Assembly (NCBI RefSeq): GCF_902652985.1
Contig: NC_047030.1
Location: forward strand, 18,600,001 to 18,664,000
DNA length: 64,000 nucleotides
Direction of reading: 5' to 3'
Origin: Pecten maximus
Lineage: Eukaryota
Part shown: positions 44,701-50,700 of the stretch, one piece after another
Numbering within the stretch: the stretch's first letter is position 1
Layout: every line of letters begins with the position of its first letter
Position numbers: made by a program

Positions 44701-47700
44701 AAATAATTCTTAGTTTGAAAAGTTGTAATCAATCACTATTCTACACTTTCATGTTAAAATAGTTTAAATAGAAATTTTTGGTATACATTTCAGATTATTT
44801 TACAGCTGGATGAAAATTTAATATACATTACCTCCTTTCTGATTCTCTTCAGGTGTAGAAATACTGCATTTCCTGTTTTTCTGTAGTAACTCTCAACAAA
44901 TCTTTTTCCAAGTCCAATAAATTTGTTCATACAAACATATAAGCCAGTTTCACTTTCCTATAAATCAAAGATGAAATCGACATTGACCTGGTTTTTTTAT
45001 GGTATTTATGGTTAACATAAATGACAGAGTTATGCAGACAAACATTATATTTTGTGCCAGCTCAATCAATATTCTCATATACCAGAATTCAGTCTAAATT
45101 AATGTTGATGAGATATGATTTACAATTCCATACTTACAGGATTGTCAAAGGAAAATGCACACTCATCCTTGAAGACTTTTTCTCCTCCAAATGGGGACTT
45201 GATTCTGGTCAAATGCTGAGACAGTGAACCAAGAGCCATTTTGAATACCTGGAATAATACAAAATAAATATCTACATTCCATGTACATTTATGTATTTGT
45301 AAATACTGTTACATAACTCAAAATATCAGTCTAGATCTACTCATTTATTGACATTCTTCTGTATATTTAAGTGGGGAAATTACATGAAATCTTCTACATT
45401 ATTGTTCTATTGTCAGTGTCATCTCATACAAAACTGTTGTAAACTTAAATGTTTAAAAGAAGAATTACATGTAATCATTTGTTTTGTATGTCCCCACTTC
45501 TCTGACAAAGTCCAGTTAGGGAAAATTCAAAATTTGAAATGTGTGATCGGATGACCATAAATTGATATATTTTAGGATGGTTTTGACAGCATATATACAT
45601 GTATGTACTTTAGAGAGAAATTAAGCTCAGCCCCCATCCCACCAGTTAAAAATTAAACTTTAACATTGGCTTGATCATTAACATTGTCCAATTAACCATC
45701 AAGTATTGGCTAAAATCGTAGTACAAAGATGTGCTAATTAGCTATAAAACAGTTTTGGTGATAATAGCACTTATTTAACAACTTGTATTGAAACACAAAT
45801 GTTGCCATATAGCTGTCACAAAAGTGAAGCCTTTTTGTCCTGCTCTGCAGCTCCATTGAGATAACCAGAAGCCAGACTCTCCTAACATACTACAGGCTAC
45901 AAACATATTAACATACTACAATTAATATGTTCAACACCTGTAATTTTGCTCAATTCAGCTCAGACAACATTGTTGTAATTATATAAGCTAGCTAAAAAAA
46001 TCTTTATTTTTTCTTACAACAGTTGTGAAACAAGTGACATCAACTTATATTAATCCTGCTTGTTGGCCTGGATGGAAGTGTGCAAGGGTTCTTACTAACC
46101 GAGGAAACCAGAATACCCATGGAAAACCCACATGATCTGGTAGGTGACCCGGTCCATACCTTTTCACATCTAATCAGGGAATAGAACCCCGCTGCCTAGG
46201 TGAAAGGTAAGTGTGTTATACTTTGCCACTAACCACTGATCTAGTAGCTTGTGATGATGTATAGTCACCGTTTCCTCTGATGTGATTGATTCCTACCCGT
46301 TACAGGGATCCAAATCATAAAGATTGTTAACAAGCATCCATATACTTGCTCATTATATCATGATATCGATATGGTATATATCCTGATGGTGATCAGTTTC
46401 ACCATTGACTTTGAGGAATGTAACTAAAATTATATAATTACATATTTGCTATTCAAACACTGACCAGGCTTATTCCTGCAGACCCTCTTTATTACACATA
46501 CATAATGTTCAGTGAATATTGCTGAAATAACATGTTACAGGTTGCATAAAAAGGTTGTATAAAAAGTAAACAAAGGGCCATAACTCTTATTAGAATGTGA
46601 TCCAATCTCCCGTGTGTACATAAAAGCGGCAATTGCAATATATATACCTTTCAGTGTTATGTAAAGATTTGGTAAGTTTCGATGAAATGACACTGGGGTG
46701 GGGCAATCGATTCAGTAACACAATTAATACATTGTTATAAAGTAACCTCTTGAATAAAATGGATTAGCAACAATCACTAAATCTACAAGAGTAACTACAC
46801 CACTTTTTCTAGTTATAGAGATACTGTGTGTCCATCCAAAATATCACCAGGAAACTATTGTTTACTGATTCTAGGCCTTAATGTGAACAAAAAATCCACG
46901 GGGAGTTTGTATAAGCTGTAAAGAATGTGACAATCTCTAATGCACAAATAAACCAAAGAGTTCATGTACCTGTCTAAATAGGCAACGTGATCAGGTTAAA
47001 TGAGAATTGTTTGTGTAATCAACCAGATTAAAACGTAATATCGCTCATAAAAGAAGCATGATCATCCTCTTCTCGAAGTTGTTATCCAGAGTCAATTTTA
47101 AGCTTGAAAATATCTGGCATAATTTTCGATGCTGGTAAACATATCACGGATTCAGATTAGCCTATCTAGAATATAGCCAATCAGATAAGCCGTTACTTCA
47201 GCGTCGACAAAATGAAACAGAGACATTGATTGGTTAGAGCGGGAACTTCAAAAAGCTTGAAAACAATTTTTGATCAGAAGAGCATCATGTAAGTATTGTA
47301 CAAGAAATGCGTGTATTGAAAACGAATGCCAATAAGGCTACAAATTGTCTGCTAATGGTGAACATATTATTTTTTGTATCAATATTTTCCTTTCTGATAA
47401 ATTTGGAACTGTAGTCTGTAGCTGTTTATCATTTGCACCGTTGAAGACATATACCGTGAAAGTATACAATCAAACAAGCAGTGGTGTGTCCAAGATGTAT
47501 TTCCTCTGATGTTAACATGTCAATCACACTCATTGCACTAAAATTCCCACACACAAAAATAAAATTGCACAATACAGCCTCGTCCCAATATTAAAGGTGT
47601 TCCCAAAACAAAGGTGACAGCTTTCTCCAAACAACCGATTTGCCCCAAACTAACATAGAGCAGTTCTCCATGCATACCACTATGCCCTTGTTCTGATTAA

Positions 47701-50700
47701 TGTCTGTTTCTAGTGCATTGAATAATTTATTAAGTTTTAGTTTTATAAATCCAAATTTTAAAGATTCTGATGTTTTGAAGACACCTTCTAAAAACATGAA
47801 ATGGGTCGATAACTTATTTGAAGGTTTCTGATCATCATCATCATCATGTCTTATCCACCTTTTAGAAAATATGATTTGGCATGATTTTCTTCAAACTTTT
47901 GAAAAGCCAATAAAATATCATGCATGTTAAATATTGGGATTAGCTATAGTGCACTGTTTAAGAAATTAGCACACATGTAATTATGTGACTAGAAATAGAT
48001 GTCCACAAATTAAATGTACCAGTATATGAAGCATATGTATATATAATACACAATCTTAGTGATCATGATCAGTCTACAATTCATTTTAATGGGTCCTTTT
48101 CAACTGTGCTAAAAAAACTGGATCTTACAATGTTCATTTTTAAATTACAGGAAGTATTTCCAGAAATTCTGCAAGTCCTATCAAAATTCTGTGGTTATAA
48201 GATAACTCGAATGCTAGTCGTTTCGGTAACAAGTCGTTTCGGTAGCAAGTCGTTTCGGGAGTCCCGAAAAGTCTCGGGTCGTTTCGGTACATACGCGAGA
48301 TTTTTTCGGGACTTCGGTAGGTCGTTTCGGTACTAATAAAACAATGCAGATTCTATCATTTTTGTGTTTTCATTGCATTTTTAAGTGACTATAATTGCAT
48401 CAACAATCTATTATTGGTATATAATGCTTACTAGCCACGACTCGGGTTAATGTCCCTTACAACGTTTACTGTAGACTACCACGTGATAACGTTTAATGAT
48501 CTACACAAAAACAGCATAATTCTTGCTAAGTTTTTTTTTTATTAATATCAAACAATCATAATATATCATCCATAACAATAATATCGATAATTAGTATAAC
48601 TCGATATTACAAATCAACAACAAATATACATTGGGCCAACGTCGGCATACGACCGTCGCGTTTGTGCTGTTACCGGATCGGGAAGGATCAGAAACACGAC
48701 CTATACATTATACTTGATCGATTAGGGAAAAAAATACATATATTATATGGATAACTGGAGCATTTTGGATTAAGGTATTTTTGTAATTATAGGAAAATGG
48801 CATGAGAAGAAGGGGAGAGGTAGAGTTAAAACTACAGTTAGGTGACTACTGTATAAGATGAAAAATAATCTAACTCCAGATTTTTCAGATATTCTAGTGC
48901 TCTAACAACAATCTGTTGGTCTAAACACCCTTATGCATTGAGAAATAGAAATAATTTTGTTATTCCTGACTATAGGCTTTCTAATACAAATTAATCTTCT
49001 TTACATTCAACTCTGCCTTACATTTTTTCTTTATATATATTTCTCTATCTTTACGTATTTCTATACATGTATATATTTCTCTAACTTTACGTATTTCTAT
49101 ACATGTATATATTTCTCTAACTTTACGTATTTCTATACATGTATATATTTCTCTAACTTTACGTATTTCTATACATGTATATATTTCTCTAACTTAACGT
49201 ATTCAATTCCATACCTACGTGTATAAACGTAATGATTTAACAAACCTAATACGAAATAAAAAAAAAAAAGTAATGAAATCACCCTGTATAGCCTTTATTT
49301 CTCGGGCATGGGTTGTTACATACCAATTTTGATTTTGATTGTATTGCTTCTGTAATAGAAGTTTGAAAATATCATAAAGGAACGAACCACCAGTGCTGGT
49401 TTAAAGAAAACACTGCGCTTGGGGGTTAAAACAATGCCGTTTGTATTATCGATACATTTGTTGTCATAGGTGTTTATACTGACTGTATATTAATTATGAA
49501 TCGTTTTAAAAACAGATTAATTCATGTTAATTATGTATTAAAAAATTAAGGTGTTTATTCTAATGTTGATTGAAAGTACCGAAACGACTTGCTCATGTCT
49601 CCCGAAACGACCCGGACTTCTACCGAAACGACTTCCGAATGTCCCGAAACAACTTCCGAAAAAGTACCGAAACGACCTGACACCGTTTTCTCCTATCAGT
49701 AGATTTGATCATTGAACCTGCAGTATATCAAAGATAGTCAGATTCATTCTGTGAAGTCAACAATTTGACCTGCCTTTGAAAGTAAATTATGTTGTTAATT
49801 GACAACATAAGCAATATATGGCACAATATTATCAATGCACACAAACATATTTTAGTTTCATTAAGATATATATTATATGATAATATTCATATTCTTACAT
49901 GGAGTGCATGCGTTAATACAAATTTCATATCAAAACCCTATGCAAATAATGTATATATGACAATGGGTGATTTAGTAGGATATTAATTAGTGGACAGTGT
50001 CTCACTATCCACATTAATATAAGATCTTTAGATGTAATTTGAAACACAATTAATACTTTAAAAAAACAACAGAAAATAAACATAACATAACACCTTGACT
50101 GTCAAGATCAAACAATGCCTCCACCAAATTTGGATCATTCCCATTCATAAACTTTAACATGCCCAATGAGTGGTAATAAATAATCAAATTTTTCTGGCCA
50201 TTTTCAATTGTATGTTTTTATATAATTATTTGAATTCTTGGTTTAGTTTGTAAAATAAATTGCAACATATGATAAATGTACATATTATGAATGTACATAT
50301 TATATACATGAAAATAGATTTGAAAAATAACTGAACTTTGAAATGTTATGTTGTTTTCAGAAACCATCATGGGTCTGGCTAATAGTAAAACCGACTTTGG
50401 AGAGGGAGAGATGATAACCCCTCCGCGTACCGGTACTCACAAACGTGTCATGGACCACGAGTTTGATCCCAGGTCACCTTCTGTAGGGATAACAAGGACG
50501 CCGATTATTGTGGAGAAGACTCCAGAGGGTCTTCTTGACCCCAGGTCACCATCTGTAGGAATAGTTAGGACTCCTATTGCCACTATTATGCCAGGTAGGT
50601 CATGTCTCATTTTAATAAACACATTTTCAAAATAGTTATGCAATGCTATGTTTGTTTTATTAATTATACAAAATATTTTCCATAAAAGTCAAAGTAGTAT

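What the first reader, a model, noticed from the sequence alone, without database searches (positions are those of the whole stretch)
45239..50369. USP5 and CDCA3 head-to-head, as in human 12p13: possible deeply conserved bidirectional gene pair
Seen: USP5 (minus) and CDCA3 (plus) diverge, with inferred non-coding first exons within about 300 bp of each other (donors at 46970 and 47288). Established knowledge: human CDCA3 and USP5 are adjacent and head-to-head. Inference: the linkage may date to the bilaterian ancestor and be held together by a shared promoter.
Basis: partly seen in the sequence, partly recalled or inferred. Interest (0 to 1): 0.65.

Follow-up and report, generated by a model that had tools for sequence, protein, structure and literature searches.

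The report
USP5 and CDCA3-like genes head-to-head
In this invertebrate-like animal genome, a ubiquitin-recycling gene (USP5 type) and a small mitosis gene resembling CDCA3 point away from each other and probably start from one short shared control region, matching the neighbourhood in vertebrates; this is an ordinary example of a known kind of conserved gene pair.

Summary
The gene calls and the divergent layout hold. The minus-strand gene is a complete USP5/13-type deubiquitinase, with its ATG at 45239 (Pfam and PDB, exon by exon). The plus-strand gene (ATG 50369, three coding exons, 220 codons) has no Pfam or PDB match. It does have a CDCA3-like layout: a twin DPRSP…RTP motif, then RSPL (RxxL), then a KEN box six residues from the end.

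The 5.1 kb between the ATGs holds only one non-repeat patch with normal CpG content, at about 46950-47400. It carries two CCAATCA boxes, an E2F-like GCGGGAA, TTCAAA and CTTGAA.

The plus donor at 47288 is the best of 188 GT sites. The minus donor at 46970 ranks only 9th of 126, so the USP5 start site is not pinned down. No transcript data exist here.

Papers place CDCA3 next to USP5 in human and show the linkage from fish to mammals. The head-to-head orientation in human is recalled only. The taxon of the window, reciprocal best hits and a synteny survey could not be checked because the protein databases were closed.

This is a probable conserved head-to-head pair, a new member of a known kind, of modest interest.

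The parts
25094..45239 (-). Coding span of the USP5/13-type deubiquitinase gene (many exons; ATG 45239-45237, stop about 25094-25096). Not every junction was resolved.
   Evidence: Pfam exon by exon: zf-UBP_var (45123-45308, 44793-44957), zf-UBP (42190-42438), UCH (40559-40771, 37430-37864, 25097-25510), UBA (28228-28446; 26974-27162 with 26132-26377). PDB best hits are human USP5, ahead of USP13.
45138..45248 (-). First coding exon of USP5. The acceptor AG is at 45250-45249, followed by 9 nt of 5'UTR, the ATG at 45239, and the donor after 45138.
   Evidence: Acceptor score 6.7 bits, rank 3 of 99 AG sites in 45240-47000.
45249..46969 (-). Putative USP5 5'UTR intron (1,721 nt), if the donor at 46970 is the one used.
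   Evidence: Inference. CpG is nearly absent from 45000 to 46050.
46970..47045 (-). Putative non-coding first exon of USP5. The 5' end is unknown; 47045 is the furthest start that leaves no upstream ATG.
   Evidence: Donor CAG|GTACAT scores 5.3 bits, rank 9 of 126. Upstream ATG counts are 0 from 47045, 3 from 47100 and 5 from 47170. Weakly supported.
47177..47183 (+). NF-Y-type CCAAT box (CCAATCA), forward orientation.
   Evidence: one of 13 matches in 64 kb.
47227..47233 (-). NF-Y-type CCAAT box (CCAATCA), reverse orientation, 50 bp from the first.
   Evidence: A pair within 70 bp arose in 35 of 300 simulated 64-kb sequences.
47240..47261 (+). E2F/CDE-like GCGGGAA (47240-47246), inverse canonical CHR TTCAAA (47247-47252) and CHR variant CTTGAA (47256-47261).
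   Evidence: CHR definitions come from PMC4705690 (passages).
47262..47288 (+). Putative non-coding first exon of the CDCA3-like gene. The 5' end is inferred to lie just after the CHR elements. The donor GT is at 47289-47290.
   Evidence: Donor CAT|GTAAGT scores 9.2 bits, rank 1 of 188 GT sites in 46900-50340. There is no ATG in 47235-47288.
47289..50360 (+). Putative 5'UTR intron of the CDCA3-like gene (3,072 nt).
   Evidence: The acceptor before 50361 scores 4.0 bits, rank 11 of 112.
48213..49685 (.). MITE-like insertion. It has inverted, reiterated subterminal GTCGTTTCGGTA-type motifs and is CpG-rich. It contains a 36-bp tandem array at 49034-49213.
   Evidence: inverted pairs I2, I6, I8, I9, I13, I14, I17; direct family D1. 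(CpG o/e 1.2-1.9).
50361..50594 (+). CDCA3-like coding exon 1 (ATG 50369). It holds the twin DPRSPSVGI.RTPI motif and six SP/TP sites.
51145..51324 (+). CDCA3-like coding exon 2 (acidic, phase 1 at both ends).
52105..52361 (+). CDCA3-like last coding exon. RSPL (RxxL) lies 46 residues before a KEN box that sits 6 residues from the C-terminus. The stop is at 52359-52361.
   Evidence: Human D-box and KEN positions come from PMC9926468 (passages).

Best explanation
A USP5/13-type deubiquitinase gene (minus strand) and a CDCA3-like mitotic gene (plus strand) lie head to head.

The 5.1 kb between their start codons is mostly 5'UTR intron, about 1.7 kb on the USP5 side and about 3.1 kb on the CDCA3 side. 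The CDCA3-side intron has been enlarged by a MITE-like insertion.

Both transcripts most likely begin in one short, TATA-less patch of normal CpG content at about 46970-47290. This patch carries two oppositely oriented NF-Y CCAAT boxes.
- Rightward, an E2F/CDE-like site and CHR hexamers lie just before a strong donor. This is the design of G2/M-phase promoters and would give the CDCA3-like gene cell-cycle-dependent expression.
- Leftward, the same NF-Y sites would serve a constitutive USP5 start.

CDCA3 and USP5 are also immediate neighbours in vertebrates. The pairing was therefore probably inherited from the last common ancestor of this animal and vertebrates.

Shown: gene identity of USP5, divergent adjacency, the motifs, the CpG pattern and the splice-signal strengths.
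Inferred: both start sites, use of the leader exons, CDCA3 orthology, promoter sharing and the age of the linkage.
For: USP5:
- All family domains are found, exon by exon.
- PDB best hits are USP5 at 144.5 bits against USP13 at 132 for the zf-UBP exon, and 73 against 63.7 for the UBA exon.

CDCA3-like gene:
- The three exons have consistent phase-1 junctions and sum to 663 nt.
- RSPL is followed 46 residues later by KEN, six residues from the end.
- Human CDCA3 is a 268-residue disordered protein with RxxL at 198 and KEN at 258 (PMC9926468, passages).
- The chance of KEN in the last eight positions is about 0.0013.
- Exons 2 and 3 fall on the disordered side of the charge-hydropathy boundary.
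- A 912-nt clam unigene is annotated as CDCA3, so the family is recognised in molluscs (PMC7720611, table passage).

Promoter:
- CpG o/e is 0.99 and 0.93 at 46950-47399. It is 0-0.54 elsewhere between the ATGs, apart from the MITE-like element and its internal tandem array.
- Two of the window's 13 CCAATCA sites lie 50 bp apart in this patch.
- A CCAATCA pair plus a CHR within 50 bp arose in 3 of 300 simulations. Adding GCGGGAA, it arose in 0 of 300.
- Human CDCA3 is listed among 210 DREAM-CDE/CHR targets (PMC4705690, Table 1).
- The plus donor ranks 1st of 188.
- Acceptors lie 8-9 nt before both ATGs.
- There are no upstream ATGs in the proposed leaders.

Vertebrate side:
- One human CpG probe is annotated both 'USP5 TSS1500' and 'CDCA3 Body' (PMC5703349, table passage).
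- GNB3, CDCA3 and USP5 are named together as conserved between mammals and fish (PMC4470515, passage).
- The great-ape gene order is GNB3, CDCA3, TPI1, with USP5 removed from that list (bioRxiv 10.1101/2023.11.13.566830, passages).

Precedent:
- NF-Y CCAAT arrays drive a bidirectional promoter shorter than 200 bp (PMC1802594, abstract in listing).
Against: - There are no transcript data.
- The minus donor at 46970 scores 5.3 bits and is only 9th of 126. Sites at 46160 (10.2) and 46648 (8.0) score higher, although they would give leaders with at least 17 and at least 3 upstream ATGs.
- The weight matrices rest on only 14 donors and 15 acceptors. I chose these partly by recalled USP5 peptide continuity.
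- The acceptor before the CDCA3-like ATG is ordinary (4.0 bits, 11th of 112).
- A leader exon starting after the CHR would be only about 15-40 nt.
- The CCAATCA count in the window equals the chance expectation (13 against 12.35). The composite motif test was designed after I had seen the sequence.
- CHR hexamers are common in this AT-rich DNA (56 TTTGAA, 44 TTCAAA).
- CDCA3: no Pfam family, no PDB match, and the Atlas was unavailable. That the twin DPRSP…RTP motif is a CDCA3 signature is recalled; no listed paper held both 'DPRSP' and CDCA3.
- A chicken gene list gives 'GNB3, USP5, TPI1, ENO2, CDCA3' (PMC12937304). If that list is positional, it separates the pair in that annotation.
- The taxon of the window is unknown.
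Confidence: 0.55

Rival explanations
1. The two genes are divergent neighbours but do not share a promoter. The NF-Y/CHR patch serves only the CDCA3-like gene. USP5 starts elsewhere, either at another leader exon or directly upstream of its ATG exon, with the start sites more than 1 kb apart.
For: The minus donor at 46970 is weak, 9th of 126. Higher-scoring GT sites exist at 46160 and 46648. The motif ensemble (E2F-like, CHR) is specific to cell-cycle genes, and USP5 has no known need for it (inference).
Against: No second CpG-normal, non-repeat patch exists between 45240 and 46950. CpG o/e is 0-0.54 there. An acceptor-like site lies 9 nt before the USP5 ATG, 3rd of 99, so an upstream exon is likely. 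The alternative donors imply leaders with at least 3 to at least 17 upstream ATGs.
Confidence: 0.25
2. The plus-strand gene is not the CDCA3 orthologue. It is a lineage-specific disordered protein that happens to carry RxxL, KEN and proline-directed phosphosite motifs, so the resemblance to the human locus is coincidental.
For: There is no Pfam hit and no PDB hit. All similarities are short linear motifs. No scored alignment to any CDCA3 could be made because the protein databases were closed and the Atlas was unavailable.
Against: Several independent features coincide: similar size (220 codons against 268 residues), a KEN box at the extreme C-terminus with an RxxL upstream (PMC9926468), a G2/M-type promoter (PMC4705690), and a position next to USP5 as in vertebrates. 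Two copies of a 14-residue motif are present, which I recall as nearly identical in vertebrate CDCA3.
Confidence: 0.12
3. The linkage is ancestral but has been kept by chance in slowly rearranging genomes, not by selection on a shared promoter.
For: Many neighbouring pairs survive without any known constraint. [quoted passage not shown] The 5.1-kb spacing between the ATGs has tolerated a 1.5-kb insertion.
Against: Conserved ancient pairs are enriched for the 5'-5' orientation, 54.8% against 26.7% (PMC3514665, passages). The insertion lies in an intron, not in the roughly 320-bp core.
Confidence: 0.3

Closest known systems
Human/vertebrate CDCA3-USP5 locus (12p13)
   Same: The same two gene families are immediate neighbours. 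The CDCA3 side is a cell-cycle (DREAM/CHR) target (PMC4705690).
   Different: The orientation and start-site distance in human are recalled, not shown by any search. Here the ATGs are 5.1 kb apart, with long 5'UTR introns and a MITE-like insertion. The flanking genes differ: a GLTP-domain gene and a LINE lie downstream of the CDCA3-like gene, and no GNB3 or TPI1 was seen in the window.
Conserved ancestral microsyntenic pairs of the co-regulated class, such as HSPE1-HSPD1 (Irimia et al. 2012, PMC3514665)
   Same: Non-paralogous neighbours in 5'-5' orientation, apparently kept over very long times, with a short shared promoter region.
   Different: HSPE1-HSPD1 encode partners of one machine and are strongly co-expressed. 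USP5 and CDCA3 have no established functional partnership, and co-expression was not tested. The pair is not named in the main text of that paper, and the supplementary lists were closed.
NF-Y-driven bidirectional promoters, such as Mrps12-Sarsm (PMC1802594)
   Same: A short intergenic core with several CCAAT boxes lying between divergent genes.
   Different: That promoter has four CCAAT boxes tested by reporter assays. Here there are two, untested, combined with cell-cycle elements on one side only.
CDE/CHR G2/M promoters (CCNB2, KIF23, PLK4, Ccna2; PMC4705690)
   Same: TATA-less, with CCAAT boxes upstream of CHR hexamers next to the start site. TTCAAA is the functional inverse of the canonical site, and CTTGAA is the Ccna2 variant.
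   Different: The spacing between the CCAAT boxes (50 bp) and between the E2F-like site and the CHR is not the canonical one as I recall it. Binding of DREAM or MuvB was not tested.

Membership tests
USP5/USP13 (isopeptidase T type deubiquitinase) | N-terminal variant (cryptic) ZnF-UBP | tested here: met
   PF17807 matches exon 45123-45308 (E 1.1e-05) and exon 44793-44957 (E 8.4e-13).
USP5/USP13 (isopeptidase T type deubiquitinase) | Canonical ZnF-UBP | tested here: met
   PF02148, E 2.7e-15. The exon is 62 of 79 residues identical to human USP5 (alignment).
USP5/USP13 (isopeptidase T type deubiquitinase) | USP catalytic core with Cys box and His box | tested here: met
   PF00443 matches three exons. 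NLGNSCYMNS is present in 40559-40771 and GHYVCH in 25097-25510.
USP5/USP13 (isopeptidase T type deubiquitinase) | Two UBA domains inserted in the catalytic domain | tested here: met
   UBA/UBA_7 matches 28228-28446 (E 3.2e-21) and 26974-27162 (E 6.2e-07), continuing in 26132-26377. PDB best hit is USP5.
USP5/USP13 (isopeptidase T type deubiquitinase) | Orthology to USP5 rather than USP13 (or pro-orthology to both) | tested here: inconclusive
   USP5 scores above USP13 in 2 of 2 exons tested. No tree or reciprocal search was possible. A single pre-duplication gene is expected in a non-vertebrate (established knowledge).
CDCA3 / Tome-1 | KEN box at the extreme C-terminus | tested here: met
   KEN lies 6 residues from the end. 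Human KEN starts at residue 258 of 268 (PMC9926468).
CDCA3 / Tome-1 | D-box (RxxL) upstream of the KEN box | tested here: met
   RSPL lies 46 residues before KEN. In human the positions are 198 and 258. The motif is short and has low specificity.
CDCA3 / Tome-1 | Small, intrinsically disordered protein | tested here: inconclusive
   220 codons with no domain. 2 of 3 exons fall on the disordered side of the charge-hydropathy boundary. No disorder predictor was run.
CDCA3 / Tome-1 | Twin DPRSP…GI.RTP motifs in the N-terminal half | not testable with these tools
   The motifs are present twice in exon 1. That they mark CDCA3 is recalled. No listed paper held both 'DPRSP' and CDCA3.
CDCA3 / Tome-1 | Significant sequence homology or reciprocal best hit to known CDCA3 | not testable with these tools
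Pfam and PDB gave no hit. The joined protein was not built.
CDCA3 / Tome-1 | Skp1/SCF binding and Wee1 targeting | not tested
   Biochemical feature (PMC8163776 introduction).
Bidirectional (head-to-head) gene pair | Adjacent genes on opposite strands, transcribed divergently, with no gene between them | tested here: met
Bidirectional (head-to-head) gene pair | Transcription start sites no more than 1 kb apart (definition in the abstracts of PMC7817982 and PMC2648788) | not testable with these tools
   Inferred to be about 200-320 bp from splice signals, CpG content and motifs. No transcript data exist. The ATGs are 5,129 bp apart.
Conserved ancestral microsyntenic pair (Irimia et al. 2012) | Orthologous pair adjacent in several distant animal lineages | not testable with these tools
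   Only this window plus vertebrate statements in papers are available. No eukaryotic genome collection was open, and the taxon of the window is unknown.

The most novel reading that the evidence does not exclude
USP5 and CDCA3 form an obligate divergent unit that has shared one NF-Y/CHR promoter core since before the protostome-deuterostome split. The pairing persists because it couples free-ubiquitin recycling (USP5) to the burst of SCF- and APC/C-driven proteolysis at mitotic entry and exit (CDCA3). This would be a functional rationale, not merely a structural accident.
Probability: 0.12. Interest if true: 0.55.

Novelty: new member of a known kind. Interest (0 to 1): 0.3.

Why it matters
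If confirmed, this adds one more non-paralogous gene pair kept head to head across very distant animals. It would be unusual in one respect: a constitutive deubiquitinase joined to a G2/M-specific gene.

That makes it a compact natural test case for how one NF-Y core can give constitutive output in one direction and cell-cycle-gated output in the other.

It would also extend CDCA3, which has been studied almost only in vertebrate cancer biology, to invertebrates. There its conserved motifs (the twin N-terminal motif, the D-box and the KEN box) stand out against otherwise free sequence drift.

Hundreds of such conserved pairs are already catalogued, so this does not open a new question.

Tried and rejected
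- PDB searches with CDCA3-like exons 1 and 3 at E up to 10 gave only chance hits (ORC1 at E 1.2, Rubisco activase at E 1.3).
- Pfam on the three CDCA3-like exons gave nothing above cut-off. One sub-threshold VSR_TRX hit (16.5 bits against a cut-off of 27) was dismissed.
- Self-BLAST of 45240-50368 against the rest of the window found no repeat copies. My first guess that 46050-46260 is a SINE is therefore unsupported.
- Rfam and ARAGORN found nothing between the two genes.
- CCAATCA enrichment across the whole window is absent (13 observed against 12.35 expected). Only the local pairing is unusual.
- No paper discusses the pair. The CDCA3+USP5+bidirectional search gave 2 of 2 irrelevant hits. 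The CDCA3+USP5 search gave 20 papers, none with either term in its title or abstract among the 17 listed.
- The main texts of PMC1487180, PMC7817982, PMC3514665 and PMC3815023 name neither gene. Their supplementary pair lists, which may include this pair, were closed.
- The bacterial promoter/terminator scan and the genome-contig collection (bacteria and archaea only) were not used because they do not apply.
- Structure prediction and complex prediction were not used. A disordered protein without an alignment would give an uninformative model.

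
Full report
**Scope and limits**

The window has no N. It is AT-rich (GC 0.367) and CpG-depleted (o/e 0.53). I do not take it for human: the best-conserved exon is 62 of 79 residues identical to human USP5. No contig taken for human was saved or compared.

I never built or searched the joined proteins, so no whole-protein score exists for either gene.

The Atlas could not read new sequences. The only open genome collection holds bacteria and archaea. Three things therefore stayed unchecked:
- reciprocal best hits for the CDCA3 call;
- the taxon of the window;
- any synteny survey.

Supplementary files of papers were closed.

**The minus-strand gene**

Stop-to-stop ORFs on the minus strand from 45308 down to 25097 read like one USP5-type protein. 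Pfam, exon by exon, finds every domain of the family in the right order:
- variant ZnF-UBP split over the first two coding exons (E 1.1e-05 and 8.4e-13);
- ZnF-UBP (E 2.7e-15);
- UCH at the Cys-box exon, a middle exon and the His-box exon;
- two UBA domains.

PDB searches with two exons rank human USP5 above USP13 both times: 144.5 against 132 bits, and 73 against 63.7 bits. In a non-vertebrate this gene is best read as the single USP5/13 pro-orthologue (established knowledge of the vertebrate duplication). I did not resolve every intron junction of this long gene.

**The plus-strand gene**

From the ATG at 50369 there are three coding exons: 50369-50594, 51145-51324 and 52105-52361. They are joined by two phase-1 introns with canonical GT/AG and sum to 663 nt, or 220 codons plus a stop.

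There is no Pfam hit and no PDB hit.

What the exons show directly:
- The protein starts with MG.
- A 14-residue motif, DPRSPSVGI.RTPI, occurs twice 24 residues apart, and the exon has six SP/TP sites.
- The middle exon is acidic.
- The last exon has RSPL, then 46 residues later KEN, six residues from the end.

[quoted passage not shown] The C-terminal design therefore matches.

I recall that the twin N-terminal motif is nearly identical in vertebrate CDCA3. No call shows this, and no listed paper held both 'DPRSP' and CDCA3.

A 912-nt clam unigene is annotated as CDCA3 (PMC7720611, table passage), and 'cdca3' is named among differentially expressed genes of a gastropod (PMC13359906, passage). 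The family is therefore already recognised in molluscs by routine annotation.

I put the orthology at about 0.8.

**The interval between the genes**

The ATGs are 5,129 bp apart. Self-BLAST finds no copy of this interval elsewhere in the window.

Positions 48213-49685 form a CpG-rich MITE-like element with reiterated, inverted subterminal motifs and an internal 36-bp tandem array.

Outside that element and its array, CpG is almost absent next to both ATGs: 0-3 CpG per 300 bp in 45000-46199 and 0-1 in 49800-50399. It rises to o/e 0.99 and 0.93 only at 46950-47399. In genomes where methylation sits mainly in gene bodies (abstract of PMC3985014 in the listing), such a patch is what an unmethylated promoter looks like. 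This last point is inference.

It contains:
- CCAATCA at 47177 (+);
- CCAATCA at 47227 (-);
- GCGGGAA at 47240;
- TTCAAA at 47247;
- CTTGAA at 47256.

TTCAAA is the functional inverse of the canonical CHR, and CTTGAA is the Ccna2 CHR variant. Human CDCA3 is one of 210 listed DREAM-CDE/CHR targets (PMC4705690, passages and Table 1).

**How unusual the motif cluster is**

CCAATCA is not enriched in the window as a whole: 13 sites against 12.35 expected, and 44 of 100 shuffles reached 13. In 300 simulated 64-kb sequences:
- a CCAATCA pair within 70 bp arose in 35;
- the pair plus a canonical CHR within 50 bp arose in 3;
- those plus GCGGGAA arose in 0;
- with plain CCAAT pairs in place of CCAATCA pairs, the full composite arose in 8.

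I chose these motifs after seeing the sequence, so the figures flatter the case.

**Splice signals**

I built weight matrices from 14 donors and 15 acceptors of the two genes. I chose these among frame-consistent candidates, partly by recalled peptide continuity.

| Site | Sequence | Score (bits) | Rank |
|---|---|---|---|
| Plus donor, after 47288 | CAT\|GTAAGT | 9.2 | 1st of 188 GT sites in 46900-50340 |
| Minus donor, after 46970 | CAG\|GTACAT | 5.3 | 9th of 126 GT sites in 45260-47400 |
| Acceptor before 45248 (9 nt before the USP5 ATG) | – | 6.7 | 3rd of 99 AG sites |
| Acceptor before 50361 (8 nt before the CDCA3-like ATG) | – | 4.0 | 11th of 112 AG sites |

The plus donor falls in the upper half of the leave-one-out scores of true donors. 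The minus donor is within the true range, which bottoms at 4.2. Sites at 46160 (10.2) and 46648 (8.0) score higher.

Sites at least as good as each acceptor occur at 1.47 and 4.55 per kb per strand across the window. Finding both within 10 nt of the two ATGs is therefore unlikely by chance. By my arithmetic the joint chance is roughly 0.001-0.002.

A minus leader from 47045 or below down to 46970 has no upstream ATG. Leaders ending at 46648 or 46160 would carry at least 3 or at least 17. The plus leader from 47235 to 47288 has none.

In sum, the CDCA3-side leader exon is well supported. The USP5-side leader exon is plausible but not established. The exact start sites are unknown on both sides.

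**Mechanism proposed**

One TATA-less core of about 320 bp fires in both directions.
- NF-Y on the two oppositely oriented CCAAT boxes opens the core. NF-Y is central to G2/M genes (PMC3141247, abstract in the listing). CCAAT arrays run a bidirectional promoter shorter than 200 bp (PMC1802594, abstract).
- Rightward, the E2F-like and CHR elements gate the CDCA3-like gene to G2/M.
- Leftward, USP5 is read constitutively.

Each transcript then splices a short leader to its ATG exon, across introns of 1,721 nt (USP5) and 3,072 nt (CDCA3-like). All of this is inference from sequence.

**Comparison with vertebrates**

- A single human CpG probe is annotated both 'USP5 TSS1500' and 'CDCA3 Body' (PMC5703349, table passage). 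The CDCA3 transcription unit therefore reaches to within 1.5 kb of the USP5 start.
- GNB3, CDCA3 and USP5 are named together as conserved between the mammalian and fish CD4 loci (PMC4470515, passage).
- A great-ape gene order reads GNB3, CDCA3, TPI1, with USP5 removed from the list for other reasons (bioRxiv 10.1101/2023.11.13.566830, passages).
No call shows the orientation.
- Against universal conservation, a chicken gene list reads 'GNB3, USP5, TPI1, ENO2, CDCA3' (PMC12937304, table passage). I cannot tell whether that list is positional.
- In this window the other neighbours differ from human. A GLTP-domain gene (E 7.5e-43) and a LINE lie beyond the CDCA3-like gene. I saw no GNB3 or TPI1.

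**Age and cause of the linkage**

If the orthology holds, the same specific adjacency arising independently twice is very unlikely. Inheritance from the common ancestor of this animal and vertebrates is then the economical reading. Whether that ancestor is the bilaterian ancestor depends on the taxon, which I could not determine.

Selection through a shared promoter is plausible. Conserved ancient pairs are 54.8% head to head against 26.7% of controls (PMC3514665, passages). Between human and Fugu, head-to-head pairs are kept at 23.9% against 15.2% for same-strand pairs (PMC1487180, passages). Neutral retention is not excluded.

**Novelty**

Conserved head-to-head pairs with shared promoters are a well-described class. 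No paper among those searched discusses this pair, and four survey papers do not name it in their main text. Their closed supplementary lists may include it.

I rate it a new member of a known kind, with interest 0.3.

Noticed in passing
window 19269-19361 (-): Two adjacent type I hammerhead ribozyme matches, 40.6 and 35.1 bits against a gathering score of 34. They lie 49 nt apart start to start, downstream of the USP5 gene. Such pairs are typical of a retroelement-borne or retrozyme-like repeat (recalled).
   Followed up: no
window 48213-49685: A CpG-rich MITE-like element lies inside the putative CDCA3 5'UTR intron. It has reiterated inverted subterminal GTCGTTTCGGTA-type motifs and an internal 36-bp tandem array at 49034-49213. 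There is no second copy in the window.
   Followed up: partly
window 57977-58525 (-): A single long exon encodes a glycolipid transfer protein (GLTP) domain (PF08718, E 7.5e-43). It lies tail to tail with the CDCA3-like gene. I recall this is not a neighbour of CDCA3 in human.
   Followed up: no
window 59432-64000 (+): A LINE-type retrotransposon. A coiled-coil ORF (59432-60073) is followed by an endonuclease plus reverse transcriptase ORF of at least 1,171 residues that stays open to the end of the window (RVT_1 E 3.9e-24).
   Followed up: partly
window 20128-21792; 37700-39200; 43207-44106; 35323-36352: Long tandem arrays lie downstream of USP5 and inside its introns. They are open in several frames. 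GC reaches 0.517 at 20001-22000, and GC skew reaches 0.517 at 38001-40000.
   Followed up: no
window 6383-7939 and 29231-30968: The same repeat family occurs twice: an array with a period of about 155 bp, followed by a PSVRPSVRP-coding stretch. One copy is far downstream of USP5 and one is inside a USP5 intron. Three of the window's 13 CCAATCA sites fall in the second array.
   Followed up: no
window 5764-5838 (+): A weak Rfam tRNA match (31.1 bits against a gathering score of 29) that ARAGORN does not call. It is probably a tRNA-derived repeat or pseudogene.
   Followed up: no
window 47103-47108 and 47256-47261: The 11-mer AAGCTTGAAAA occurs twice, 153 bp apart, flanking the two CCAAT boxes. 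It could be a repeated regulatory element or chance in AT-rich DNA.
   Followed up: no
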